Part shown: positions 1,912 through 63,925 of the stretch, one piece after another
How the letters are laid out: the number at the start of each line of letters is the position of its first letter
Position numbering within the stretch: the first letter of the stretch is position 1
From: Gammaproteobacteria bacterium
GTDB taxonomy: Bacteria; Pseudomonadota; Gammaproteobacteria; CAJXQU01
NCBI GenBank assembly: GCA_965238175.1
Contig: CBDEGZ010000003.1
Location: 2,112,001 to 2,176,000, forward strand
Direction of reading: 5' to 3'
Length of the DNA stretch: 64,000 nucleotides
Position numbers and translations under genes: made by a program
Notes under the pieces: model-generated
What the model was told of the DNA's origin: nothing
Databases searched by the model: none
The model's input: only the letters and a program-made list of their open reading frames with translations

Positions 1912-2047
1912 AGATGAGCGACTGACAGATGCTTGAACATCCGCCAGACGCCGGCAAAACGGTGTGTACACCGCAAGCCGGCCGAGGACTCATCTACTGC
2001 TACGCAGCGGTAGGGAGTCTACCAGAAATTTTAATAAGGAGGCTCAA

Positions 2048-2818
2048 GTGAACAAACCAATAATACCGTGGATGGGCGGGAAAAGACGTCTGGCCAAACA
2101 AATAATTGATCTGATTCCAGATGACCATACTTGCTATGTTGAGCCGTTTTCAGGTGGTGCAGCTGTGCTATTTATGAAGCAGCCTTCAAAAGTAGAAGTG
2201 CTTAATGATATCGATGGCGAATTGGTGAATTTATATCGCGTTGTAAAACATCATTTGGAAGAATTTATCAAAGAATTCAAACACTCTTTAGTTAGTCGCA
2301 GAATGTTTGATTGGGAGAAGCTGAAGACACCAGAAACGCTGACTGATATCCAACGCGCAGCACGTTTTTTTTATCTACAAAAACAGTGCTTCGGTGGTAA
2401 AAGAATAAATCAGAGCTTTGGTATATCTGCGACAAACAAACCAGGTTTAAATTTACTTCGCATTGAGGAAGATCTAAGCGATGCTCATTTACGATTATCA
2501 CAAGTTTTTATTGAAAATTTGGCATGGGATAAATGTATAGAAAGATATGATCGTCGGAAGACGGTTTTCTTTTGTGATCCACCCTATTTAGATACGACAG
2601 GGTATGGCGTTGAATTTTCAATTGAACAATATAATCTGCTTGCAACTATGGCTCGAAATATTAAAGGGCGGATGATAATTACATTGAACGATCACCCAAC
2701 GATTAGAGAGATATTTCACGATTTTGACATGATTGAAACCAGTCTGAGATACACGGTTGGTGGCGTTAAAAAGAATCAGGATAAACGACGTGAATTGATT
2801 TTGAGATATGGGATCTGA
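2048..2818 (+). CDS. D12-class N6-adenine DNA methyltransferase (phage Dam-like)
   Basis: PWMGGK, YVEPFSGGAAV, EVLNDID and DPPY motifs; GTG start at 2048 after TAAGGAGG. Confidence 0.93.
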   Translation: MNKPIIPWMGGKRRLAKQIIDLIPDDHTCYVEPFSGGAAVLFMKQPSKVEVLNDIDGELVNLYRVVKHHLEEFIKEFKHSLVSRRMFDWEKLKTPETLTDIQRAARFFYLQKQCFGGKRINQSFGISATNKPGLNLLRIEEDLSDAHLRLSQVFIENLAWDKCIERYDRRKTVFFCDPPYLDTTGYGVEFSIEQYNLLATMARNIKGRMIITLNDHPTIREIFHDFDMIETSLRYTVGGVKKNQDKRRELILRYGI

Positions 2819-3011
2819 CGATAAAAACACTCGATATGCTAGAGACTATCAGTGCAGTGATTGCCCTGAACAGGCGGAGGTTTTCTGGCCAATTGTCGAT
2901 CCTGATATTGAGTCATTTCCGTTTTGCCGCGAGTGTGTAGAAACACAAAAAGCAGTATATTTTATCTTCATCTCAGAAGTTGAACACTGTATGGGATCAG
3001 ACAATGAATGA
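2808..3011 (+). CDS. Small putative zinc-ribbon protein (CxxC..CxxC)
   Basis: CSDC and CREC; overlaps both neighbours; flanked by a direct repeat. Confidence 0.6.
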   Translation: MGSDDKNTRYARDYQCSDCPEQAEVFWPIVDPDIESFPFCRECVETQKAVYFIFISEVEHCMGSDNE

Positions 3012-3690
3012 AGTTGAAGTCACACTAAACGGCACACCTTTTGCGGAAGCGATCCAGTTTTTGAAGGACAAAATTAATCTACCTTCACGACGCTGGGATG
3101 AGCTGTTAGGCCAGATTCACGCTAAAGTGTTCACCGTTGCCGGTGCAATTTCTGATGACCTATTAAACGACCTTCGTAATGATGTGAATGAGTCGATAAA
3201 AAATGGTGAATCAATATCAAAATTCAGAAAACGCTTTGATGAGACCAAGCAAAAACACGGCTGGAATCATCGTGGTAAAAGAGGCTGGAGAACGCGTATT
3301 ATTTATGATGCTAATATGCGATCAGCACACATGGCTGGCCGTTGGCAACAGATCCAGAATACAAAGGACTCGAGACCTTATATAAAGTATGAAACTGTCG
3401 GTGATAATCGCGTCAGGCCCGAACACCAGGTATGGGATGACACTGTATTATCTATTGACGACAGCTGGTGGAATACACACTACCCACCGAATGGCTTTGG
3501 ATGCCGATGCACCGTGCGTACTCTTAATGATAGGCAACTGGAAAGGGAAGGGCTGCAGGTATCAACCGCACCAGCGATTAAGTTGGAAGAACGGATTAAC
3601 AGTGAAACAGGCGAAGTCTACGGCCAAGTGCCAGAAGGCATCGATACAGGTTGGGATTACAACGTCGGAAAAGAATGGTTGAATTTATAG
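3004..3690 (+). CDS. Phage head morphogenesis protein, Mu gpF / SPP1 gp7 family
   Basis: FTVAGA, GDNRVRPEH, WWNTHYPPNGFGCRC, GIDTGWDYNVG. Confidence 0.92.
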   Translation: MNEVEVTLNGTPFAEAIQFLKDKINLPSRRWDELLGQIHAKVFTVAGAISDDLLNDLRNDVNESIKNGESISKFRKRFDETKQKHGWNHRGKRGWRTRIIYDANMRSAHMAGRWQQIQNTKDSRPYIKYETVGDNRVRPEHQVWDDTVLSIDDSWWNTHYPPNGFGCRCTVRTLNDRQLEREGLQVSTAPAIKLEERINSETGEVYGQVPEGIDTGWDYNVGKEWLNL

Positions 3691-4003: not shown

Positions 4004-4031
4004 ATTTAACATAATATACATTATGCGAACT
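4004..4031 (-). other. dif: dif site (XerC/XerD recombination site), attL of the inovirus
   Basis: Minus strand AGTTCGCATAA-TGTATA-TTATGTTAAAT, against E. coli dif GGTGCGCATAA-TGTATA-TTATGTTAAAT. Confidence 0.95.
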
Positions 4032-4128
4032 TTGCGAAAAGAAAAAAGGTTAAAAAAAGATACATGGTATTAAGTATTTACAGATTAGCCACGATAAAAA
4101 GAATAATATTAAGGGAAATTTATTATTT

Positions 4129-4404
4129 ATGTGCAAATGCAAAACATGTAACGCCTTAAAAAATGAATCTTTACATGTTGAAAATGAATATCTTGTTTTT
4201 AACAATCAAATAAAAGTAGAAATAAGTGAATTAAGGTTGCTGAGGTGGAAATCTGCATTTTATGATAGAGGCTTAAAACCTAGTTCAGCATCTGCTTTTT
4301 ATCATAGTCAAAATATTCAAGGAATGATGAAATATCCTGAAATGCTTACACCTGCAAATAAAGATAATATTTTAGAAAACCTACTCCTTAAATTGAAGGA
4401 TTAG
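4129..4404 (+). CDS. Inovirus accessory hypothetical protein
   Basis: 91-aa ORF in very AT-rich DNA, opposite strand to the core phage genes. Confidence 0.55.
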   Translation: MCKCKTCNALKNESLHVENEYLVFNNQIKVEISELRLLRWKSAFYDRGLKPSSASAFYHSQNIQGMMKYPEMLTPANKDNILENLLLKLKD

Positions 4405-4516
4405 CTCTACAGAATTCCACTATCGTGGAATCCCATCGCCATAAAGTTATGTGTCCTCGATTGCACTGTTTAGGTTGACAGTGTATAAAAAATGTCTTTT
4501 CTAATTCGAAGGTATC

Positions 4517-5110
4517 ATGGAAATAATTCTAGAAATTCTATCATCAGGTATAGAAATATTCATAAAAACAATGGGAATGGCTGTGAAATTCTTCATTGCA
4601 TTTCTATTTATAGCTATAAGTATATTTTTATACAAATATTATTTAATACTTAACAAACCAATACCTAAAAAAATATTAAAATCAATATTTAAAGGAAAAA
4701 AAGTTATTGAAGAAAAAGTCGATAAAAGAATAATTAAGCATAATAAAAATGAGTATTTAACCACAGAAAATGAAAGAAAATTCTTTTATGCATTAAAAAA
4801 AGCAATTGGAGAAGATTATCTAATCCATTGTCAAACATCCTTAATCGCAATTGTAGAACCAATAGAATATAAAGATAAATCTAGAGCTTGGTCAAAAAGA
4901 GTCGATTTCGTAATAACTGACAATAAAACAAAAATAATAGCTGTCATTGAGTTGGATGATTCATCTCACAACAAAGCTAATAGAATTAAACGTGACAAAT
5001 ACGTAAATAATGCATTAGAACCTCATCATCCATTAATAAGATTTAATACTGAAAAATTCTACAAGCCAGAAAAAATTGCAGAAATTCTTGCATTCCATAT
5101 AACAAAATAA
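4517..5110 (+). CDS. DUF2726 family protein with N-terminal TM (inovirus accessory gene)
   Basis: LTTENERKFF, RVDFVITD, IAVIELDDSSH, KRDK motifs. Confidence 0.85.
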   Translation: MEIILEILSSGIEIFIKTMGMAVKFFIAFLFIAISIFLYKYYLILNKPIPKKILKSIFKGKKVIEEKVDKRIIKHNKNEYLTTENERKFFYALKKAIGEDYLIHCQTSLIAIVEPIEYKDKSRAWSKRVDFVITDNKTKIIAVIELDDSSHNKANRIKRDKYVNNALEPHHPLIRFNTEKFYKPEKIAEILAFHITK

Positions 5111-5206
5111 AGAACCCTTTCATCTCGATAGTGATTGATAAGTTATTAATATAAGAAAAACCGGATTTATTACTATTTGTGTATTATTTTTAATTGATAA
5201 GTTAAG

Positions 5207-5242
5207 GCAACCCACGCGACAGCCTGTCGCTGAGTGGGTTGC
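5207..5242. other. GC-rich hairpin in inovirus intergenic DNA (terminator, packaging signal or minus origin candidate)
   Basis: GCAACCCAC-GCGACAG-C-CTGTCGC-TGA-GTGGGTTGC. Confidence 0.55.
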
Positions 5243-5388
5243 TAGCTTTTGTTTTGTTTATGTAAAAAATAAAAAATAATAACGTAGGCTATTGATGTGG
5301 TTATTGAAATTGTAAGTTGGTAGTAAAGAAAGGCATCTGATATCTCTGACAATGAATTTATATACTCATTAAGTTGTTCTTTTCCCAT
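5242..5388 (-). CDS. Small membrane protein (48 aa, not in track)
   Basis: MGKEQLNEYINSLSEISDAFLYYQLTISITTSIAYVIIFYFLHKQNKS; TAATG coupling to the upstream ORF. Confidence 0.55.
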   Translation of the reverse strand: MGKEQLNEYINSLSEISDAFLYYQLTISITTSIAYVIIFYFLHKQNKS

Positions 5389-5537
5389 TATTTTTTACCT
5401 TCAGTTTTATTAAATAATGTTAATGCTAATACCAATAAAATTGTGTTCAGTGTAAAAAATAAACCTTGTATAAACATGAGCTGTTGGGCTAATGAGTTGT
5501 AGTGGTTACCTAATAATTCTATTAGTTGTTGTTCCAT
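5388..5537 (-). CDS. Small membrane protein (49 aa, not in track)
   Basis: MEQQLIELLGNHYNSLAQQLMFIQGLFFTLNTILLVLALTLFNKTEGKK; AGGA RBS. Confidence 0.6.
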   Translation of the reverse strand: MEQQLIELLGNHYNSLAQQLMFIQGLFFTLNTILLVLALTLFNKTEGKK

Positions 5538-5568
5538 GTTTTTATTCCTATTTTTATATAAATCTGAT

Positions 5569-5637
5569 TTAAGTGACCATGATTATTACGGCGACTATTA
5601 GGACTATTAATACTACTGAGAATGGGTCTATTGGCAT
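5569..5637 (-). CDS. Tiny hydrophobic peptide, possible pVII/pIX-type minor coat (22 aa)
   Basis: MPIDPFSVVLIVLIVAVIIMVT; AGGA RBS. Confidence 0.5.
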   Translation of the reverse strand: MPIDPFSVVLIVLIVAVIIMVT

Positions 5638-5707
5638 GATTGTTTCCTAACATTATTATTAGCTGTGATATTGATAGCGGATGCCCTCGAGTCCGCTAGG
5701 TTGTGAC

Positions 5708-5911
5708 TTATCCGAAGATAGCTGCTTTTGCCCATTTAAATACAATGGCGACGCTGGCAAGTCCAATCATTGCTGAACCGATGGCAGTTATTGAGGCGGT
5801 ACCATCTGTAGTGATTGCAGTTGTTGCGGCTGTTACATCAATTTCTGCAAATGCTGGTGATACTGAAAGTGTGCCCAATGCTGCCAGGCTATATTTTGTG
5901 AATTTATTCAT
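5708..5911 (-). CDS. Inovirus major coat protein pVIII
   Basis: Signal peptide ending AFA, ~45-aa mature helix, C-terminus VFKWAKAAIFG. Confidence 0.9.
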   Translation of the reverse strand: MNKFTKYSLAALGTLSVSPAFAEIDVTAATTAITTDGTASITAIGSAMIGLASVAIVFKWAKAAIFG

Positions 5912-5934
5912 GATGTTTTTCCTATTAATTTAAG

Positions 5935-6420
5935 TTAACGTTTATTTAATATTTGGTGAATTGTTAGCCTAATTATGAAGGCTAATGCTAGTACTAAGGC
6001 ACAAGCACCAAATAAACTTGATGCCTCAGATTCTGATAATTGGGGTGTGTTTAATGTATTGCCTGATTGAAGTTGTTCAAGAGAGTCCAAAGCTTCAGTT
6101 AATTGATTTTGTATATCTGTTTGATTAGTACTATAAAATTCTAAAAGAGATAAAAAAGATGACCGGTTTAAAGAAAGGTGAGTACAAAGAGAAAAACCTG
6201 CTAAAAAATCTGACTCATAATGAATAGCATCAACGAGTTGTTGAGGTGTATCTATAGATTGGCTAGTAAATGTTTGAGTTATAGATCCTGATATATCAAG
6301 TGTGCCAGAGCTGTTTGGTACTGTGCAAACACCATCAAGTTGAGGTGCTGAAAATGCTGATTTAGGAATAATAATCAGTATAAATAAAAATAGTGATAGG
6401 GAATGATATTTATAATTCAT
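5935..6420 (-). CDS. Exported protein with C-terminal minor-coat-like TM segment
   Basis: Signal peptide; C-terminus LSESEASSLFGACALVLALAFIIRL; directly upstream of pVIII. Confidence 0.65.
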   Translation of the reverse strand: MNYKYHSLSLFLFILIIIPKSAFSAPQLDGVCTVPNSSGTLDISGSITQTFTSQSIDTPQQLVDAIHYESDFLAGFSLCTHLSLNRSSFLSLLEFYSTNQTDIQNQLTEALDSLEQLQSGNTLNTPQLSESEASSLFGACALVLALAFIIRLTIHQILNKR

Positions 6421-7441
6421 CTGGTTTTATCCTGCTTAAAATTTGTTGCTGTTGATGAGATTGAATTCTTTGACGTTGTGGCTCTTTTTGAAAGTCAAAC
6501 ATGCCATCTCTAATGAAGCCCTTACAGAAGTTTAATGTAACGTGTGCACGTGTTCCCTGTTGAGTTATACATTTGCAATCCTGGCCTGTGTCATAACAGG
6601 CTGTAATTCTTGGAACAGTTCTAACTTTTAAATGGTCTGAGTAAATGGGAGCAGACCAAGGAAGATTAACTTCAGCTATATAATTTTCTGGTTGTGTAAA
6701 ATATTGCTGTTCTATCTTAATTTTTTTAGGTATTTGATAGTTTGGTTCAAAAGGATTCTCATCAGTTTGTAGCTGATTATTCGCTGTAGTACGACCGGCA
6801 AAGTCATCAGCGTCTTTAGTAAATAAGTCATAAATTGTTGATACTCCAAATGTGATTACTCCAATGATGACTACACCAGCTACCGCAGCTTTCACAAGTC
6901 CTTTCGGTATTCTTTTTTTTACTGTGTGTTGGTCTGATGAGTGATATAGCTCGTAGACTTCTTTTGGAAATTTGAATGTGCTTTTTTCTACACCAGGAGC
7001 GTGGAAGCTTCTTGTATCTGAAACGTCGAGTACTTTTTCACTTCTGTATAACGTACTGAATTCACCTTTTGTCGGTGAGCGTTCTAAGTGGAAATGTGTT
7101 TCTACTAGCCTTCTTACCCATACGTCTAATAGTGCTGGATGTTGTGTTACAAAAATAAAATCTAAGCCTTTATGCCGGTGTGTACTGAATGCTGTTATCC
7201 ATTCTTTTGCATCGCCCTTTTGTCTGGTTTTTGCGTAATCCTGCATTTCATCAACTACTACTAATGCACCTTGTGGGTAATTCTGCCAGTTTTCTAAGTC
7301 GTCACGTTCTTCTGTATTGATTTTCAATCCGTTGAAGTTAATAGAGATAACATGCCTGCCCTTCTCTATTTGTTGAAGCATATATTCAACTGTATAAAGT
7401 GATTTGCCGTGACCTGGACGACCTGTGATTAATGTGATCAT
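6410..7441 (-). CDS. zot: Inovirus assembly ATPase pI (Zot family)
   Basis: MITLITGRPGHGKS Walker A, VVVDEMQ Walker B, HRHKGLD, TQHP, TM segment, CxCxTQQGT. Confidence 0.95.
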   Translation of the reverse strand: MITLITGRPGHGKSLYTVEYMLQQIEKGRHVISINFNGLKINTEERDDLENWQNYPQGALVVVDEMQDYAKTRQKGDAKEWITAFSTHRHKGLDFIFVTQHPALLDVWVRRLVETHFHLERSPTKGEFSTLYRSEKVLDVSDTRSFHAPGVEKSTFKFPKEVYELYHSSDQHTVKKRIPKGLVKAAVAGVVIIGVITFGVSTIYDLFTKDADDFAGRTTANNQLQTDENPFEPNYQIPKKIKIEQQYFTQPENYIAEVNLPWSAPIYSDHLKVRTVPRITACYDTGQDCKCITQQGTRAHVTLNFCKGFIRDGMFDFQKEPQRQRIQSHQQQQILSRIKPDEL

Positions 7442-7794
7442 TAACTAGTTCCTAATGAGAGTTTTTTAATGGCGCCTGATGCGATTGCCAGTGTTGATAC
7501 CGATGTATAGGTAGTGATTATCAGTGTGATAGCATCTTGCAATCTGAGTATGTGCATGATTTGCAGGGCTTCACTAAAGCCAACTACTGAACCAAATGTA
7601 AGATAGCTATTAAGCTGTGATGTGACTGTATTGATAAATAAATCAAGCCCTTCATAGACAACATATCCAACACCAAATACTGCTATTAGTTTAAAAAGTA
7701 TGCCTATCGCTGCTATCTTAAATATTGAGAGAATTCCGGCTCCTGTAAAGAAACTGTACAGCGCAGGTGCTGCTGCTATTGCTGGTAATGGCAT
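7441..7794 (-). CDS. Minor coat protein pVI-like (DUF2523)
   Basis: 117-aa hydrophobic protein between pIII and pI; GVGYVVYEG motif. Confidence 0.8.
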   Translation of the reverse strand: MPLPAIAAAPALYSFFTGAGILSIFKIAAIGILFKLIAVFGVGYVVYEGLDLFINTVTSQLNSYLTFGSVVGFSEALQIMHILRLQDAITLIITTYTSVSTLAIASGAIKKLSLGTS

Positions 7795-9422
7795 TAGACT
7801 ATTACTCCTCTATATACGATTGAAAATGAGAATAACCAGGCACTAATCATGATGAAATTTGATATCAACGCAGCTAAATTGCAGAAGAGTTCAAAACTGA
7901 CTGTGAACTGATTGCCTAGTACGGTGGTTGATAATGGTGCTGGACAGTTTCCAGCGGTATTCTGTTCGGCTATTTCCCCGAGACTAACGGTGGTTGAGTT
8001 GTTATCTAATTGGGTACTTAGGTCTTCAAACTCAGTTGGAACGTCATTACCGAATACACTTTGTACTTCTGCTGTGGTTGGTGCGTGGTTTGGTTTTTCT
8101 TCTACCTGGTTATTACAACGGGTTTCCCATTGTTGATATATTTGATGACAGGTCAATACATCGCCGGAACAGGTTGGAGCTGTGGTACATGAGGTGCCAC
8201 CACTGATGGTGCCCTGCTCTTCTTCTCCTTCTCCAATGGCTGCTACTACTTCGTCTAGTTTGCCTGACAATGTTCCTGTTTGTGAATCTATGGCCCCTAC
8301 TACGTTTGCTGAGTTGGTATTAATTTGGTCTGTTTGTGCATCTAAGGATGACTGAAGATCATTAAGCCTGTTTTTATTTCTTTGGCTTTCAAAGAAGGTG
8401 TCATAGGTAACATTTGTATTTTCAACTAGATTGTTCTCTATTGTTTGGTTGCCGGTTTCTACCGTAGCCTGCAGGGTATCTGTTTTGTTGTTTATTGTTT
8501 GGTTGCCGGTTTCTACTGTTGTTTGTAGTGTTGCTATGTTTTGGTCTACTGTGTCGACTGAGGTTTGAACGGAATCGATTTTTGTTGACGTAGTTTGGTT
8601 ACCATTTTCTATTGTTGTTTGTGCAGTATCGATTTTATTTGATAGTTCTTGGTTACCGGTTTCTACTGTATTAGCTAAATCATTTAATTCTTGTGAGACA
8701 ATACCGCCACTTGGTGGGTTTTCTGGGTCTATTTCTTGGTCTGGGTCAAGTGCTGGAAGTGGATCACCAATTGCTGTAACAAGTGGTAAGCCTGATGGAC
8801 AGTCATCTCCTGTGTAATAGCGGTTTGCCCAGAATAATTTAGGTTCGTTTGCTGACCAAAAATAGCTTCCGTGTGGTGATGCTTTACATGACAGTCCTTC
8901 TTCCGGTGCAACGCAAACTGATTCAGTTGATTCAAAACTAGTTGTAGCCCATTCATATTCATGGTCTGAGCAGTAGTCAGGAGTAATACATTGTCCTGTT
9001 TGATAGTTGATTGTTGAGCCTTCTGGACATGTATGGGTAAGTATTATTTGAGCGTATGTTCCCGAATCGCTATACGGTGGAATATTGTATATTCTGTCAT
9101 ATGAGCACGTTAGTGTATTGCCGGTGATACTTTGACCTGTTGAAGACCAGTAAAATCCATATACTGATTCATTGCTTGGGTCATAGTTATCGAAAACTGT
9201 TGTGTGATATGAACAGAATTGCGAAAGACCTGATGAGTCTAAATATACTGTTGCTGAACCATATGTGCCGTTGATTCTAGTCGTATGATATATAGAATAG
9301 TAATCCTCTGCATATGTGTATGTGCTGTTGATTACTAATATAGCGAATAGTATTTTTTTGAAAGTTTTCATGCCCATACTACCTCGCCATCTGGTAGTAA
9401 AAATCGTTTTTTTCTTGCCCAT
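7794..9422 (-). CDS. Adsorption protein pIII-like (TspB-like C-terminus)
   Basis: Signal peptide, Cys-rich N domain, ETGNQ repeats, C..PTCSGD..C, CPAP, C-terminal TM; true start probably the internal MKTFKK. Confidence 0.85.
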   Translation of the reverse strand: MGKKKTIFTTRWRGSMGMKTFKKILFAILVINSTYTYAEDYYSIYHTTRINGTYGSATVYLDSSGLSQFCSYHTTVFDNYDPSNESVYGFYWSSTGQSITGNTLTCSYDRIYNIPPYSDSGTYAQIILTHTCPEGSTINYQTGQCITPDYCSDHEYEWATTSFESTESVCVAPEEGLSCKASPHGSYFWSANEPKLFWANRYYTGDDCPSGLPLVTAIGDPLPALDPDQEIDPENPPSGGIVSQELNDLANTVETGNQELSNKIDTAQTTIENGNQTTSTKIDSVQTSVDTVDQNIATLQTTVETGNQTINNKTDTLQATVETGNQTIENNLVENTNVTYDTFFESQRNKNRLNDLQSSLDAQTDQINTNSANVVGAIDSQTGTLSGKLDEVVAAIGEGEEEQGTISGGTSCTTAPTCSGDVLTCHQIYQQWETRCNNQVEEKPNHAPTTAEVQSVFGNDVPTEFEDLSTQLDNNSTTVSLGEIAEQNTAGNCPAPLSTTVLGNQFTVSFELFCNLAALISNFIMISAWLFSFSIVYRGVIV

Positions 9423-10186
9423 GTTGATAGCCAGAAGAAGCCATCCCGGTATTCATAATTGTTATTAAATTCGACACCGAGTAATGATTCTATTGAACGC
9501 TGAGTGTAGAAATCGCTTAATGATATATGGACATATTTGACTAATTTATTGACATTGATATTGAGTGATGTTCGATATCTTCTTCTTGATATTTCTACAC
9601 AGTCCATTGCTTTGGTAACGTATTTTGCTAAGTAAGATGCTAGGTTAATTGGTGCCCAGAGCTTTTTATTTCTGGGTGTTGTGATATCAACATTTCCGCC
9701 GGTTTTACCGTCTTCCCTTCTTGTGATGTGGTACCACTCTTCTCGAACTATTTGAATCATGATGAAGCCTTTAAGTGCAATGTGTAGGTGATATCCACCG
9801 TGTTTATGTCGTTCTGGAACAGCTACGTAGTCAAACTTAATATTTCGTTTTTTTAGATTTCTGAGCAGTAGTTTGAAATCTCTCCATAGCTTGTTGAAAT
9901 CTGTCATGCAGCCGCGGTATGTGATGGTGAGCATTCGGTCTGCTTGGATGGTTGCTATTTTTTGTCTAACGACTTTTTTTGCTCTACACGATGCCGCTAT
10001 TTTGGAATTCTCTGACATTTCATCTTTGTTTTCGGCTTCACGTTGTTTGCCACCTTTGTTTCTACCGAACTCCATCGATGCCCAAGTTGTGGCCTCAGCG
10101 TTACCGTCAGGGTAAGTAACGCAAGTGATACCTTTGGTATTGGGCGACTGATGGTCATTTAATAAGTTCGCTGATGAAGAATCCAT
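9368..10186 (-). CDS. Rolling-circle replication initiator (HUH endonuclease)
   Basis: MLTITY (motif I), ERHKHGGYHLHIAL (HUH), YLAKYVTK (motif III). Confidence 0.9.
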   Translation of the reverse strand: MDSSSANLLNDHQSPNTKGITCVTYPDGNAEATTWASMEFGRNKGGKQREAENKDEMSENSKIAASCRAKKVVRQKIATIQADRMLTITYRGCMTDFNKLWRDFKLLLRNLKKRNIKFDYVAVPERHKHGGYHLHIALKGFIMIQIVREEWYHITRREDGKTGGNVDITTPRNKKLWAPINLASYLAKYVTKAMDCVEISRRRYRTSLNINVNKLVKYVHISLSDFYTQRSIESLLGVEFNNNYEYRDGFFWLSTWARKKRFLLPDGEVVWA

Positions 10187-10262
10187 AATAAAACCCGTTT
10201 CGTTACTTTAACTGATTGATTTTTAAGGGGAGGTTCAGATACGTTAGTGTTACAAGTCTAGT

Positions 10263-10283
10263 AAAAGCAGCTGCGCTGCTTTT
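10263..10283. other. Hairpin upstream of rep, candidate origin element
   Basis: AAAAGCAGC-TGC-GCTGCTTTT. Confidence 0.4.
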
Positions 10284-10297
10284 TCTTTAAACCTTCT

Positions 10298-10555
10298 CTA
10301 CCCTACCCTGCTATATTCGTAACTGTGTTGCTCTGTGGGCTGTGTATTGATGACCCACTTTGCTAATAATGTTTCTGCGATTACGATGCAGCTCTCGTAA
10401 TCTGAGGCGCATCCAGCTAGCCGCATTGTTGCTGTTTCATTGTCGTAATATCTTGTTGATATCACTTCATATCCGCAGTCAAATGGTTTGATGGTAAATT
10501 TGACTGCTGTCCCATCTGGTAATGCAATTGGGTGTGTGAAGAGTTCGTTATTCAT
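10298..10555 (-). CDS. Inovirus hypothetical protein
   Basis: 85 aa, ATGA-coupled in the phage operon. Confidence 0.7.
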   Translation of the reverse strand: MNNELFTHPIALPDGTAVKFTIKPFDCGYEVISTRYYDNETATMRLAGCASDYESCIVIAETLLAKWVINTQPTEQHSYEYSRVG

Positions 10556-10806
10556 GATTTAAGTCCTTCGTTAATTGGTGTGTGAAGTACTTCTTGTCTG
10601 AGTTCTTTTTTATGGTGATTAATTATTTGCTGTCTGATCGGTTGTGTCTGTGGTGCTGTGAAGAAGACTGATTTTGATATTTTGTTTTTTTGGTCTTGAT
10701 ACTCCAGATAGCAAACTGATTTAAAGGATAAAACAGTCTCCATGACCTTAAGGATGATTTGGCCATTGTGATATGGGATGTTGGAGACTGTTTTAAAAAG
10801 CGCCAT
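10552..10806 (-). CDS. Inovirus hypothetical protein
   Basis: 84 aa, tightly packed in the operon. Confidence 0.65.
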   Translation of the reverse strand: MALFKTVSNIPYHNGQIILKVMETVLSFKSVCYLEYQDQKNKISKSVFFTAPQTQPIRQQIINHHKKELRQEVLHTPINEGLKS

Positions 10807-10812
10807 GTCTTT

Positions 10813-11103
10813 TTAACTTAATGGCGCTGGTTCTTTAAATTGTGATTGTTCTGTCATTATCAGAGTTCTCGACGCCTCGAGTGAACCGTATGAGTTTACT
10901 CGTGGTTCGTATGACAATAGGTAGTAGCCCGGTTTTGGTACTTGTTGATTTTCTGGTATTGAGAATCGTGTTAGTTCAGTTCCCGTGTGTTGGTTGTCCT
11001 GGTTATATTTAAAACCCAGTGTGTTGATTTCTTTTACCGTGAATGTGTCGTTTATTTTTCGTGGTGCGACGGTGGTTTTGTCTGAGATTTTGACTATTAG
11101 CAT
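10813..11103 (-). CDS. ssDNA-binding protein (pV-like)
   Basis: 96 aa from MLIVKIS; PKPGYYLL..RVNSYGSLE motif. Confidence 0.75.
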   Translation of the reverse strand: MLIVKISDKTTVAPRKINDTFTVKEINTLGFKYNQDNQHTGTELTRFSIPENQQVPKPGYYLLSYEPRVNSYGSLEASRTLIMTEQSQFKEPAPLS

Positions 11104-11312
11104 TTGTTTGCCCTCGTTAGTTGTTTGGGTGGTCAGGCCAGGTTTCAGATAACGAAGGCGCTCTCTTTCTCCCTTTCTGACCATTGGTCGGCCCTTTTGG
11201 ATTTGGGGTCGATGTGGGAAGGATAGTCCCGAACATAGACTATGTCAACATTTAGGGACGTAGTAAATTGGGACGTTTAATAATAAAGTATTTAAAAAGA
11301 GGAATTATTGAT

Positions 11313-11711
11313 ATGGGTACGTTGGATATTGTTAGTAGAATTAAAAATAAAATAGGTAAAGATTCAGACTATGCTGTAGCTAAAGCTTTAGGTGTAAATA
11401 GACAAAACATATCTAATTACAGAATAAGAAATACAGTAATGTCGCCTGATGATGCTTTAAAAGCTGCTGAAATTTTAGAGGTTAATCCAGAAGATATTGC
11501 ACTTGAATTATTTGCAGAGAAATCTAAAAAAGAAGAAACAAAAGAATTTTGGAAAAAGCGTTTAAAGGAAGCTGCTATCCCTATGATTTTAATGGGATTT
11601 TTATCTTATCCTCCTTCAGTATCAGAAAATAAAAATTTAACCCATGTTATACATTATGCGAACATATTAATATTGAAAAGTAGAGAATTACTTAGGCTTG
11701 TGCTGACTTAA
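11313..11711 (+). CDS. Inovirus HTH repressor (RstR/DUF3693-like) spanning attR
   Basis: SDYAVAKALGVNRQNISNYR HTH; divergent from the lytic operon; att core encoded at IHYAN. Confidence 0.85.
   Translation: MGTLDIVSRIKNKIGKDSDYAVAKALGVNRQNISNYRIRNTVMSPDDALKAAEILEVNPEDIALELFAEKSKKEETKEFWKKRLKEAAIPMILMGFLSYPPSVSENKNLTHVIHYANILILKSRELLRLVLT
11635..11664 (-). other. attR: dif-like site with intact XerC arm and degenerate XerD arm
   Basis: ATTTAACCCATGT-TATACA-TTATGCGAACA. Confidence 0.85.
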
Positions 11712-12489
11712 ACAGATTGAAAAAGTTCGTCGTTGAAGCCTGTATCACATCTTCAACCGCAATTCCTCTGAGATTGGCCACAAATTCTGCGACATGTCTT
11801 ACATAAGCTGGTTGATTAGATTTTCCTCTATGTGGTGCCGGTGCTAGATAAGGAGAATCTGTTTCGACTAATAAACGATCTAAAGGGATTCGTTTAGCAA
11901 CATCTTGAACTTGTTGTGCATTTTTGAATGTCACAATACCTGAGAATGAAATATAGAAGTTTAGATCCAACGCTTTTTTTGCAATATCATAATCATCAAC
12001 AAAACAGTGCATTACACCTGTAGCTTTATCTGCTTTATGTTCTTTCATGATCGCGATGGTATCATTGCCAGCTTCTCTGGTGTGAATAACCAGTGGTTTA
12101 TCGACAATATTTGCGGCTTCTATGTGAGTGATAAAGCGGTTGTGTTGCCATGTAAGATCACCTTCGCTGCGAAAATAATCCAGCCCTGTTTCACCTATAG
12201 CCACCACATTTGGATCATTTTTAGATAAATCCACCAGTATTTCGACTGACGGTTCTGTTTTAACGTCGGTATTCGGGTGTACACCAACAGAAGCAAAAAT
12301 ATGTGCGTGTTCGGATGATATTTGTTTGATTTCTGGATATGAGTCAAGATCAACTGAAATACAAAGCATATGCCCTATTCCAGCTTCTTTTGCATTTGCC
12401 AATATTTGTTCAAGACCTCCATCGTATTTGATCAAGGGTAGATGACAGTGGGAATCGACGAGTTTTAACTCAGGTTGTATCTCAGGCAT
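11692..12489 (-). CDS. tatD: TatD family hydrolase (YcfH)
   Basis: DSHCH, VGVHP, IGETGLDY, HCF, ETDSPYLAP. Confidence 0.95.
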   Translation of the reverse strand: MPEIQPELKLVDSHCHLPLIKYDGGLEQILANAKEAGIGHMLCISVDLDSYPEIKQISSEHAHIFASVGVHPNTDVKTEPSVEILVDLSKNDPNVVAIGETGLDYFRSEGDLTWQHNRFITHIEAANIVDKPLVIHTREAGNDTIAIMKEHKADKATGVMHCFVDDYDIAKKALDLNFYISFSGIVTFKNAQQVQDVAKRIPLDRLLVETDSPYLAPAPHRGKSNQPAYVRHVAEFVANLRGIAVEDVIQASTTNFFNLFKSAQA

Positions 12490-62952: not shown

Positions 62953-63925
62953 ATGTATCAATCACCATTTTTAATGAATATCCATAATTTTATGTTGGCT
63001 CGTCGTTACAGCAAACGAACGATCAAAACGTACATCGTATGGATAAAACGCTATATTAATTTTTCTAATACAACAGCACCCTAGAGATTTAAGTGCTTTG
63101 GATGTTGAACGGTTTTTAACGCATCTTGCTGTAGATAGAAACGTCGCAGCAGCTACCCAATCCATCGCTTTAAATTCGATTGCTTTTTTGTATAACACTT
63201 ATCTGGATATGCCAATTGATAACTTTGCTGAATTTAGACGAGCGAAACGCCAAGCTAAATTACCAACTGTATTAACACAAGAAGAAGTTGCGTTGTTATT
63301 GTCTAATCTTGATGCTAAATACAAATTAATTGTTGGATTATTATATGGTTCTGGTTTGCGGCGTATAGAATTAGTTCGACTTCGGGTGGATGATTTCGAT
63401 ATCGAATTTAAACAGTTAAGAATTTGGAATGGAAAGGGATTTAAACACAGATTAACAACCCTGGCGCCTGAGTTAATACCTGCGATTAAGCGACAAATTC
63501 AAAAGGTAGAACACTATCTGGCTGAAGATATAGAAAACCAGGAATTTGCAGGGGTGTGGTTACCTGATGCACTTGAGCGAAAGTATAAAAATGCGAACAA
63601 ATCTTTAGGATGGCAGTACCTATTTCCTTCTCATAAATTAAGTATTGACCCTCAAAACAACCAAGTTCGGCGACATCATATTGATGAAAGTGGTATTAAC
63701 AAGGCGATTAAACAGGCTGCCTTAAGGGCCGGCATTAGAAAGCCTGTCAGCTCTCACACGATGAGGCATTCTTTTGCTACGCATCTTTTACAAAATGGTG
63801 CAGATATACGAACTGTTCAACAACAGCTTGGACATAGTGACGTGAAAACTACAGAAATTTATACGCACGTTTTGAAACAAGGGGCTAACGGCGTGAAAAG
63901 CCCATTAAGTCAGTTGTTTAGTTAA
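62953..63925 (+). pseudogene. intI: Integron integrase with +1 frameshift near 63070
   Basis: MYQSPFL..YSKRTIKTY..WIKRYI stops at 63082-63084; +1 frame has QHP..VERFLTHLA, LLYGSGLR, GKG, the IntI patch LPDALERKY..WQYLFP, HTMRHSFATHLL and TTEIYTHV. Confidence 0.92.

What the first reader, a model, noticed from the sequence alone, without database searches (positions are those of the whole stretch)
4015..11711. Integration swaps the C-terminus of the inovirus repressor
Seen: the att core TATACATTATGCGAAC lies within the repressor ORF (..IHYAN). In the prophage the protein ends with a host-derived 15-aa tail, ILILKSRELLRLVLT. Joining 11663 to 4031 (excised circle) keeps the frame open for 42 codons, FAKRKKVKKRYMVLSIYRLATIKRIILREIYYLCANAKHVTP, stopping at 4157-4159. 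Known: attP inside the repressor gene gives integration-dependent immunity in some mycobacteriophages, and attP within a regulator gene is reported for Xanthomonas dif-integrating inoviruses. Inference: host XerCD recombination acts as the genetic switch that changes repressor stability or localisation.
Basis: partly seen in the sequence, partly recalled or inferred. Interest (0 to 1): 0.7.

Follow-up and report, generated by a model that had tools for sequence, protein, structure and literature searches.

The report
Phage regulator gene split by integration
A filamentous-phage prophage sits at the chromosome's dimer-resolution site with its attachment site inside its own regulator gene, so the integrated and free phage make regulators with different tails; this was already described for a few plant-pathogen phages and looks typical of the gene family.

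Summary
A 7.6-kb inovirus prophage (4031-11663) is integrated at the chromosomal dif site. It is bounded by a 16-bp direct repeat that occurs only twice in the genome. Its helix-turn-helix regulator gene (11313-11711) reads through the right junction, so 117 residues are phage-coded and 15 are host-coded. Joining 11663 to 4031 gives a 42-codon phage-coded tail instead.

The arrangement and the idea of a functional difference are already in print for phiRSS0 ORF13 (156 to 130 aa) and XacF1 ORF12. Both are homologous to this protein by profile comparison.

New here is how general it is:
- The family has 1195 representatives, mostly Pfam DUF3693.
- It carries the dif core in the gene's 3' part in all three reading frames.
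- In 19 prophages rebuilt as circles, every one changes its C-terminus on integration (median tail 31 aa in the circle, 8 aa in the prophage).
- In free phages Cf1c, Xf109 and phiLF, compensating indels keep the frame open across the core.

Open questions remain. A change in stability or localisation is untested. No degradation tag is seen. Frame maintenance could instead serve coupling to the downstream gene.

Verdict: a real feature, a new member of a known kind, of moderate interest.

The parts
4004..4031 (+). attL, a complete dif site: XerD arm 4004-4014, central 4015-4020, XerC arm 4021-4031
   Evidence: The same 27-nt site occurs once in each of 5 of the 6 other genomes of the genus, with 0-2 mismatches. 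Sequence read.
4031..4159 (+). Phage DNA that would encode the 42-aa basic tail of the regulator in the circular form (stop 4157-4159)
   Evidence: 8 of its first 20 residues are K or R. No Pfam hit.
4129..4404 (+). ORF91, of unknown function. It overlaps the end of the circle-form tail by 31 nt and sits where relatives carry a DUF3653 gene.
   Evidence: No Pfam hit at E<=10. No homologue besides itself. hhalign against a DUF3653 profile gives probability 0.2%.
4517..5110 (+). DUF2726 cargo gene on the same strand as the regulator; a terminator-like hairpin follows at 5220-5241
   Evidence: PF10881 5.1e-23, phrog_14167 3.2e-52, terminator scan.
5708..11184 (-). Inovirus core genes: coat B 5708-5911, Zot/pI 6410-7441, pVI-like 7441-7794, pIII-like 7794-9422, rolling-circle Rep 9368-10186, small ORFs up to 11184
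   Evidence: Pfam: Phage_Coat_B 2.7e-9, Zot 7.3e-24, DUF2523 3.9e-5, REP_ORF2-G2P 3.1e-12. PHROGs: phrog_197 6.4e-69, phrog_3419 9.8e-51.
11185..11312 (.). Divergent intergenic region between the phage gene block and the regulator
   Evidence: A promoter-like site on the minus strand at 11248-11220 matches 10 of 12 positions, but site counts are no higher than in shuffles. GGGACGT at 11255 and 11270 was seen by eye only; the repeat finder reported nothing.
11313..11711 (+). HTH regulator gene in its prophage form (132 aa): residues 1-117 phage-coded, 118-132 host-coded
   Evidence: phrog_4441 1.5e-21 and phrog_638 7.8e-15. 1195 representative homologues. AlphaFold2 mean pLDDT 85.9.
11637..11664 (+). 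attR: degenerate phage XerD-side arm 11637-11647, central 11648-11653, XerC arm 11654-11664
11692..12489 (-). Host tatD, convergent with the regulator; its 3' end overlaps the host-coded tail by 20 nt
   Evidence: PF01026 5.8e-79. Same dif-tatD neighbourhood in relatives.

Best explanation
**Shown**
- An intact-looking inovirus is integrated at the chromosomal dif site of an uncultured gammaproteobacterium. Host XerC/XerD are the likely recombinases, because the phage has no integrase.
- Its attP has the dif central region and XerC arm but a degenerate XerD arm. It lies inside the 3' part of the phage's Xre-type regulator gene.
- The circular phage therefore encodes a 159-aa protein with a 42-aa basic tail. 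The prophage encodes a 132-aa protein whose last 15 residues come from the host dif-tatD spacer.
- Integration also cuts the regulator off from the two same-strand genes that follow it in the circle (ORF91 and DUF2726).
- This layout is a trait of the whole regulator family (DUF3693 type: phiRSS0 ORF13, Cf1c Cp8, XacF1 ORF12).

**Inferred**
- The full-length circle form is the product that selection maintains.
- The gene therefore works as a built-in reporter of integration state, with replicative and integrated phage making functionally different regulator modules.
- I put about 50% on the tail itself changing the protein's behaviour. The direction (stability, membrane association, oligomerisation) is unknown.
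For: **Anatomy**
- Repeat, flanks and ORFs.
- Inovirus genes.
- No integrase domain among the prophage ORFs, and none of the genome's 6 tyrosine recombinases lies in the prophage.
- Host XerD scores 394.9 bits and XerC 354.5 bits, both over the curated cut-offs.

**Family**
- 1195 representatives at E<=1e-3.
- 68 of 87 aligned members hit Pfam DUF3693.
- The family profile matches phiRSS0 ORF13 (probability 99.3%, E 1e-20) and Cf1c Cp8 (98.8%).

**dif core inside the gene**
- Peptides that the 9-nt inner core can encode occur in the C-terminal half of 76 of 149 representatives. Shuffles give 4.5 +/- 2.1 (maximum 12), and the N-terminal halves give 4. The three frames are split 31/24/21.
- At DNA level the core is inside the ORF's 3' part in 7 of 13 class-level loci.
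- It is also there in 17 of 28 order-level loci by exact match, with no other exact core anywhere in those loci.

**Rebuilt circles, 19 elements**
- All 19 change their C-terminus on integration.
- The circle tail is the longer one in 17 of 19. Medians are 31 aa (circle) and 8 aa (prophage).
- At least 4 K/R in the first 20 residues: 11 of 19 circle tails against 4 of 19 prophage tails.

**Free phage genomes**
- The same core lies in frame 1 in Cf1c, frame 0 in Xf109 and frame 2 in phiLF. The downstream tail is nevertheless conserved as protein.
- Indels of +0/+2/+1 upstream and +0/+1/+2 downstream restore the frame.
- phiSHP2 and SMA6 show the same pattern.

**Amphipathicity**
- Circle tails exceed shuffles (z 1.91; 10 of 300 shuffles reach the observed value). 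Prophage tails (z 0.71) and off-frame translations (z 0.84) do not.

**Literature**
- phiRSS0 lysogens make a truncated ORF13 and are immune (passages read).
Against: - **No direct evidence of a second state.** No circle junction, RNA or protein data exist for this phage. Contigs of three runs from one sample show only the integrated form.
- **No close relatives.** Conservation of this particular 42-aa tail cannot be tested.
- **No recognisable degron.**
- **Weak membrane case for this protein.** Its hydrophobic segment is weak: Kyte-Doolittle 19-residue maximum 0.98, against a family median of 1.65. AlphaFold2 confidence is low over residues 91-112.
- **The host-coded tail may substitute.** It is predicted helical with pLDDT about 82.
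- **Family statistics are modest.**
  - K+R per residue is 0.219 in circle tails and 0.174 in prophage tails.
  - The in-frame tail is longer than both off-frames in only 6 of 19 elements.
  - Tails of the representatives show no amphipathic excess (z 0.64).
  - Synonymous to amino-acid-changing codon differences in tails are 14:21. That is only mildly above my rough neutral expectation of about one in four, which comes from no call.
- **Another reading fits frame maintenance.** It could serve translational coupling to the next gene rather than the tail itself.
Confidence: 0.5

Rival explanations
1. Operon splitting is the main effect. The frame is kept open across attP only so that ribosomes reach the start of the next gene (a DUF3653 gene in relatives, ORF91 here). 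Integration then matters because it detaches that gene, and DUF2726 here, from the regulator's promoter and from translational coupling. The tail's amino acids are irrelevant.
For: - By a naive first-start ORF call, the circle-tail stop overlaps or abuts the next same-strand ORF in 14 of 18 elements. ATGA-type overlaps occur in G386, G545 and G446, and here the overlap is 31 nt.
- That next ORF hits DUF3653 in 10 of 18 cases, 8 of them over the Pfam cut-off.
- GenBank annotation shows the same order in Xf109, phiXv2, Cf2, phiSHP2 and SMA6.
- In phiLf2 and Xf409 the two genes are fused in frame.
- The most conserved end of the Cf1c-type tail coincides with the ribosome-binding region of the next gene.
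- No terminator-like site lies between 4031 and 5220 on the + strand.
- The DUF3653 protein PSB15 of phiLf-UK is needed for virion assembly (passages read).
Against: - In G272, G015 E2, G505 and G537 the next ORF starts 30-101 nt after the tail stop.
- Circle tails show some composition and amphipathic signal that off-frame translations lack.
- ORF91 is not a recognisable DUF3653.
- No transcript data are available.
Confidence: 0.25
2. Neutral by-product. attP simply abuts the end of a compact regulator gene. The functional protein ends before the core, and whatever follows, phage- or host-coded, is tolerated junk.
For: - Prophage tails range from 0 to 39 aa, and 8 of 19 are 0 aa. These prophages are apparently maintained.
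- Tails after the core are very diverse across representatives.
- The core lies in any frame, as expected for a permissive region.
- AlphaFold2 confidence drops after residue 90.
- Open frames are easily long in the GC-rich hosts: the in-frame tail beats both off-frames in only 6 of 19.
Against: - Compensating indels restore the frame on both sides of the core in two phage lineages.
- Tail protein sequence is conserved between phages whose regulators are only 51-61% identical overall.
- In this AT-rich phage, 42 open codons are unlikely by chance: 1.1% or 7.1% depending on the null.
- In G272 the phage XerD arm differs from the host arm at the base that would create a stop codon.
Confidence: 0.2
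3. The protein is mainly a recombination or architecture factor acting at the attP inside its own gene, by analogy with the HTH-bearing XafT of TLCphi. It would not be the immunity repressor, and the overlap would reflect cis-action at attP.
For: - The gene is tightly linked to attP across the family.
- A lysogeny module of regulator plus dif-like attP is described for Vibrio elements (passages read).
- XafT has an Xre HTH domain (passages read).
Against: - The family is DUF3693, not DUF3653.
- XerD activation by XafT was assigned to DUF3653, not to the HTH domain.
- The gene is divergent from the replication and structural genes, like rstR-type repressors.
- phiRSS0 lacking ORF13 escapes immunity.
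Confidence: 0.1

Closest known systems
Ralstonia phage phiRSS0 ORF13 (Yamada 2013, PMC3816273; PMC4471427)
   Same: - It is a homologous HTH regulator: the family profile that includes the window protein matches it with probability 99.3%.
- A dif-type attP lies in the 3' part of the gene.
- XerCD integration shortens the protein from 156 to 130 aa.
- The authors proposed that the two forms differ in function.
   Different: - The host class and the dif sequence differ.
- Its 26-aa circle tail shows no detectable similarity to the 42-aa tail here.
- Immunity data exist for phiRSS0 and none exist here.
Xanthomonas phages XacF1 ORF12 / Cf1c Cp8 (18.2-kDa protein), Xf109, phiXv2, Cf2, phiLf
   Same: - The attP core TATACATTATGCGAA is identical.
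- The regulator is homologous, with probability 98.8%.
- attP is annotated inside the HTH CDS in the GenBank records.
- XacF1's authors noted that ORF12 may be split on integration.
   Different: - Those phages carry a DUF3653 gene (PSB15-type) directly downstream. ORF91 here is not recognisably DUF3653.
- Their tail is a second hydrophobic stretch followed by a short basic end. Here the tail is strongly basic.
Integration-dependent immunity of mycobacteriophage BPs (gp33; abstract of PMC4557955)
   Same: - attP lies inside the repressor gene.
- The prophage product is shorter than the viral product (103 against 136 aa there, 132 against 159 aa here).
   Different: - BPs is a tailed phage with its own integrase, and there is no homology.
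- BPs' viral form carries an ssrA-like degradation tag. No such tag is seen here.
- The recombinase here is the host's XerCD.
CTXphi/TLCphi-type IMEX lysogeny modules (RstR, XafT, dif-like attP; PMC6744903, PMC12715192)
   Same: - The element integrates at dif by XerCD and has no integrase.
- The regulator gene lies next to attP and is divergent from the replication genes.
- attP has a degenerate XerD arm, as described for TLCphi.
   Different: - In the passages I read, attP is described as lying beside or between genes, not inside the regulator ORF.
- The regulator families differ.

Membership tests
IMEX (integrative mobile element exploiting Xer) | Flanked by dif-like repeats, with one junction regenerating a complete dif | tested here: met
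   16-bp repeat at 4015 and 11648. A full 28-bp dif lies at 4004-4031, identical or near-identical to the single site in 5 of 6 congeners.
IMEX (integrative mobile element exploiting Xer) | Inserted at the chromosome's dif, with an empty site in relatives | tested here: met
   Only two core copies in the genome. An uninterrupted dif lies next to tatD in relatives. The phage's Zot gene was found in 1 of 7 genomes of the genus.
IMEX (integrative mobile element exploiting Xer) | No recombinase of its own; host XerC and XerD present | tested here: met
   No integrase domain in the prophage ORFs. All 6 tyrosine recombinases of the genome lie outside 4031-11663. XerD 394.9 bits and XerC 354.5 bits, both over cut-off.
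IMEX (integrative mobile element exploiting Xer) | Recombination actually catalysed by XerCD; excision or a circular form exists | tested here: inconclusive
   Contigs of 3 runs from one sample show only the integrated form. Depth is about 5, and contigs drop rare variants.
Inovirus (filamentous phage) | pI/Zot ATPase, major coat protein B, rolling-circle Rep and minor coat genes in about 7 kb | tested here: met
   Pfam and PHROGs hits. The element is 7633 bp.
DUF3693-type HTH regulators (phiRSS0 ORF13 / Cf1c Cp8) | Match to Pfam PF12472 (DUF3693) | tested here: inconclusive
   The window protein has no DUF3693 hit at E<=1; its best hit is DUF739 at 2e-4, below cut-off. However, 68 of 87 of its phmmer homologues hit DUF3693.
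DUF3693-type HTH regulators (phiRSS0 ORF13 / Cf1c Cp8) | Homology to the named members | tested here: met
   hhalign of profile A1 (first row is the window protein) against ORF13 gives 99.3%, E 1e-20. Against Cp8 it gives 98.8%, E 1e-16.
DUF3693-type HTH regulators (phiRSS0 ORF13 / Cf1c Cp8) | dif-type attP inside the 3' part of the ORF | tested here: met
   The core covers codons 112-117 of 132.
DUF3693-type HTH regulators (phiRSS0 ORF13 / Cf1c Cp8) | Hydrophobic, membrane-helix-like segment after the conserved W linker | tested here: inconclusive
   The 19-residue hydropathy maximum is 0.98 here. The family median is 1.65, and 83 of 149 members reach 1.6 or more. pLDDT is 56-65 over residues 91-112.
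Integration-dependent immunity (BPs type) | attP within the repressor gene; prophage product shorter | tested here: met
   132 aa against 159 aa.
Integration-dependent immunity (BPs type) | Viral form ends in an ssrA-like degradation tag | tested here: not met
   The circle tail printed does not end in an Ala-Ala type tag. The feature is defined from the abstract read.
Integration-dependent immunity (BPs type) | Phage-encoded integrase acts on the attP | tested here: not met
   No integrase in the prophage.
Integration-dependent immunity (BPs type) | The two forms differ in stability and repression | not testable with these tools
   Needs expression of both forms.
XafT / DUF3653 (tested for ORF91, the gene after attP) | Match to PF12375 or to a profile of phage DUF3653 proteins | tested here: not met
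   No Pfam hit at E<=10. hhalign probability 0.2%.

The most novel reading that the evidence does not exclude
Splitting of the regulator module by integration may be an ancestral, family-wide design rather than an oddity of a few phages. DUF3693-type regulators place attP in a sequence-tolerant stretch near their 3' end. Only the circular genome can then make the full-length protein, with its basic or hydrophobic C-terminal tail, and co-express the tightly packed downstream gene (the PSB15/XafT-like DUF3653 gene in many relatives). The prophage makes a tail-less regulator and orphans the downstream gene. This would give integrase-less phages a hard-wired readout of their own integration state that uses only the host's XerCD. 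Two relatives whose ORF ends in tRNA-like sequence hint that the design may extend beyond dif.
Probability: 0.3. Interest if true: 0.65.

Novelty: new member of a known kind. Interest (0 to 1): 0.4.

Why it matters
How filamentous phages that lack an integrase, and often an obvious induction circuit, tell 'free' from 'integrated' is poorly understood. These phages shape the virulence of cholera, wilt and canker bacteria.

If the attP-in-regulator layout is a functional switch, one host recombination event would rewire phage regulation. That would parallel the integration-dependent immunity of mycobacteriophages but use host XerCD.

The family-wide survey here turns scattered remarks about phiRSS0 and XacF1 into a general, testable rule. 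It also shows that annotated C-termini of this family in genome databases are often chimeric, part phage and part host.

Tried and rejected
- **Sequencing runs.** No RNA holder is listed. Contigs of 3 runs from one sample show the integrated form across both junctions and no circle joint.
- **Close relatives of this phage.** None were found:
  - tblastn of the regulator found only 37%-identical HTH genes in 21 Burkholderia phage records.
  - blastn of the prophage covered 2% of the query in 2 Vibrio phage records.
  - The word-index protein search returned only the query itself.
  - Two viral-contig scans found nothing.
  - No Zot match in the 6 other genomes of the genus.
- **ORF91 as DUF3653/XafT.** Rejected. 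The G272 and G015 downstream ORFs also gave no match.
- **Promoter and terminator scans.** Site counts were no higher than in shuffles.
- **Operator repeats.** The repeat finder found none.
- **ORF length as evidence in GC-rich hosts.** This fails: the in-frame tail beats both off-frames in only 6 of 19.
- **Amphipathic signal in tails of database representatives.** Not significant (z 0.64).
- **A membrane-spanning segment in the window protein itself.** Weak.
- **One spurious att pair.** The G699 pair (a 12-mer without a dif core) was replaced by requiring TTATG in the shared core. G464 gave no second copy and was dropped.
- **A typed-sequence script.** The statistics were recomputed from stored loci instead.

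Full report
**1.

- The 16-bp sequence TATACATTATGCGAAC occurs at 4015-4030 and 11648-11663. Shuffles expect 0.06 matches, and 0 of 100 shuffles gave two. It occurs nowhere else in the 3.35-Mb genome.
- The left copy is part of a complete 28-bp dif site (4004-4031). The same site, with 0-2 mismatches, occurs once in each of 5 of the 6 other genomes of the genus.
- To the right of the right copy lies the dif-tatD spacer. Relatives have an uninterrupted dif about 55 nt from the tatD end.
- The ORF 11313-11711 reads through the right copy. It has 117 phage-coded residues and 15 host-coded residues.
- Joining 11663 to 4031 opens 42 further codons, ending at 4157-4159. The other two frames close after 13 and 6 codons.
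- A run of 42 or more open codons occurs in 1.1% of composition shuffles. It occurs at 7.1% of antisense positions within the phage.

**2. What the element is**

- Positions 4031-11663 (7633 bp, 36% G+C) carry a full inovirus gene set on the minus strand:
  - coat protein B;
  - a Zot/pI ATPase;
  - pVI-like and pIII-like proteins;
  - a rolling-circle Rep.
- On the plus strand lie ORF91, a DUF2726 gene and the regulator.
- There is no integrase in the element. The host encodes XerD and XerC, both over the curated cut-offs.
- The phage side of attR has the dif central region and XerC arm but a degenerate XerD arm. The XafT paper describes the TLCphi attachment site in the same way.
- The host is an uncultured gammaproteobacterial lineage known from metagenome-assembled genomes.
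- The element was not found in the six other species of the genus. It has no close relative in the phage, viral-contig or protein collections searched.

**3. The regulator belongs to a large family that carries attP in its 3' end**

- The protein has an Xre-type HTH domain. Evidence:
  - phrog_4441, E 1.5e-21;
  - PDB hits to the HTH domain only;
  - AlphaFold2 pLDDT above 90 over residues 1-80.
- A full HMMER scan found 1195 representatives at E<=1e-3.
- Of 87 aligned members, 68 hit Pfam DUF3693 and 75 hit HTH_3. The window protein itself does not reach DUF3693.
- No paper in the library mentions DUF3693.
- The members share one build:
  - an HTH domain;
  - a linker with a near-invariant Trp;
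  - a hydrophobic stretch;
  - a variable Pro/Ala/Ser-rich spacer;
  - a short peptide that is the translation of the dif inner core in one of three frames (YIM.., .HYA/.YYV, .TLC/.ILC).
- Such peptides occur in the C-terminal half of 76 of 149 representatives. Shuffles give 4.5 +/- 2.1 (maximum 12), and N-terminal halves give 4. The three frames are about equally used.
- DNA confirms this.
  - In the class-level sample (14 of 401 genomes with a match) the core lies inside the ORF's 3' part in 7 of 13 loci. Among the other six, two are long fusions, three are short forms without the hydrophobic stretch, and one has a dif-like site about 50 nt downstream, read by eye.
  - In an order-level sample around G386 (23 of 301 genomes) the exact 9-nt core is inside the ORF in 17 of 28 loci. 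No other exact core occurs anywhere in those loci.
  - Four more of those loci proved to have one-mismatch cores paired with a full dif.
- Both orientations occur, with either the XerC arm or the XerD arm distal to the gene.

**4. The two forms in relatives**

- For 19 prophages, including this one, a second dif-type copy lies 6-11 kb upstream, so the circle could be rebuilt. One further locus had no second copy.
- All 19 change their C-terminus on integration.
- Circle tails are 9-65 aa, with a median of 31; 15 of 19 fall between 22 and 46 aa.
- Prophage tails are 0-39 aa, with a median of 8; 8 of 19 are 0 aa.
- The circle tail is the longer one in 17 of 19.
- Circle tails are somewhat richer in Lys/Arg: 11 of 19 have at least 4 in the first 20 residues, against 4 of 19 prophage tails.
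- Circle tails are modestly more amphipathic than shuffles (z 1.91; 10 of 300 shuffles reach the observed value). Prophage tails, off-frame translations and the mixed tails of database representatives are not.
- ORF length alone is not evidence in the GC-rich hosts. The in-frame tail beats both off-frames in only 6 of 19.

**5. The strongest evidence comes from free phage genomes**

- Cf1c Cp8 (the 18.2-kDa protein), Xf109 ORF10 and the phiLF homologue all carry the same core, TATACATTATGCGAA.
- The core is in frame 1, frame 0 and frame 2 respectively. The protein before it and the tail after it are nevertheless conserved.
- The DNA alignment shows indels of +0/+2/+1 upstream of the core and +0/+1/+2 downstream. 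Each phage therefore returns to frame.
- phiSHP2 and SMA6 do the same with another tail type.
- Translation through attP is therefore maintained by selection.
- GenBank records of Xf109, phiXv2, Cf2 and phiLf2 annotate attP or a Xer recombination site inside this CDS.

**6. A second consequence of integration**

- In the circle, the regulator's stop overlaps or abuts the next same-strand ORF in 14 of 18 elements, by a naive first-start ORF call.
- That ORF is DUF3653 in 10 of 18 cases, 8 of them over the Pfam cut-off.
- In phiLf2 and Xf409 the two genes are fused in frame.
- DUF3653 is the family of the Xer activation factor XafT. It is also the family of PSB15 of phiLf-UK, a packaging-signal-binding protein needed for assembly but not for integration.
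- Integration therefore also cuts this gene off from the regulator.
- In the window the corresponding position holds ORF91, which overlaps the tail by 31 nt, followed by DUF2726.
- ORF91 is not a recognisable DUF3653.
- This raises a rival reading: the frame may be kept open for translational coupling rather than for the tail itself. The most conserved end of the Cf1c-type tail coincides with the next gene's ribosome-binding region.

**7. What is known**

- Yamada (2013) reported that attP lies within phiRSS0 ORF13 and that integration shortens it from 156 to 130 aa. He proposed that the full-length and truncated forms have different functions. Lysogens are immune to phiRSS0 but susceptible to phiRSS1, the variant lacking ORF13 (passages read).
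- Ahmad et al. (2014) noted that the XacF1 attP lies within ORF12, a putative regulator that may be split on integration (passages read).
- Both proteins are homologous to the window protein's family.
- The mycobacteriophage BPs system is analogous but unrelated. Its viral form carries an ssrA-like tag and it has its own integrase (abstract read). Neither feature is present here.
- Searches for later experimental tests of the filamentous-phage hypothesis found none in the library.

**8. Verdict**

- It is a new member of a published kind.
  - the generality across a DUF3693-type family;
  - the use of all three frames, with frame-restoring indels;
  - the linkage to a downstream gene.
- Whether the swap changes stability or localisation is open. 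For this phage the evidence is thin:
  - no relatives to compare with;
  - no degron;
  - a weak hydrophobic segment;
  - a host-coded tail that is itself predicted helical.
- My odds:
  - about 0.5 that the tail matters;
  - 0.25 that operon splitting is the main effect;
  - 0.2 that it is neutral.

Noticed in passing
window 1964-3690: Directly left of dif lie a D12-class DNA adenine methylase (1964-2818) and a Mu F-like head morphogenesis gene (2980-3690). This looks like a remnant or the end of a tailed prophage abutting dif.
   Followed up: no
window 4517-5110: The DUF2726 cargo gene has a hydrophobic N-terminus. A 150-190-nt stretch of it (about 4823-5014) is the only part of the prophage with nucleotide similarity (69-74%) to known phages, namely Vibrio phages Vaf1 and 10N.286.49.E3_PE001.
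   Followed up: no
window 11255-11276: GGGACGT occurs twice, 15 nt apart, in the divergent intergenic region, and GTCCC (its partial inverse) occurs near 11227. This may be an operator. It was seen by eye only; the repeat finder reported nothing.
   Followed up: partly
L074 and L076 (G464:C1:1469962-1470252 and 1461808-1462104): In two family members the ORF's 3' end translates a tRNA-like sequence instead of a dif core. This suggests integrase/tRNA-integrating relatives with the att site again inside the regulator gene.
   Followed up: no
L018 (G322) and L020 (G156): The same HTH domain is fused to the N-terminus of an ORF of about 600 aa whose remainder looks like an NAD synthetase by eye.
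   Followed up: no
L042 (phiLf2) and L043 (Xf409): The regulator and the DUF3653 gene are fused into one ORF (277 and 256 aa). In phiLf2 the Xer site is annotated on the opposite strand.
   Followed up: partly
L037 (G272:C12), att sites at 8252 and 18080: The phage XerD arm differs from the host arm by one base, exactly where the host arm creates an in-frame TAA. The prophage protein therefore stops inside dif, but the circle form reads on.
   Followed up: partly
L033 (G015:C3), att sites about 10.9 kb apart; L088 (G446): These look like tandem IMEX arrays. The 'host-coded' tail of one regulator is in fact the far end of the neighbouring element. In G446 the prophage tail resembles the circle tail.
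   Followed up: partly
run X3, record 14: A 7150-nt contig at depth 204 in the same sample shares only two 18-nt words with the prophage. It is inovirus-sized and may be another filamentous phage in the community.
   Followed up: no
window 63074-63880: A third tyrosine recombinase gene (292-aa frame, PF00589 at 131 bits) lies near the right end of the window, outside the prophage.
   Followed up: no
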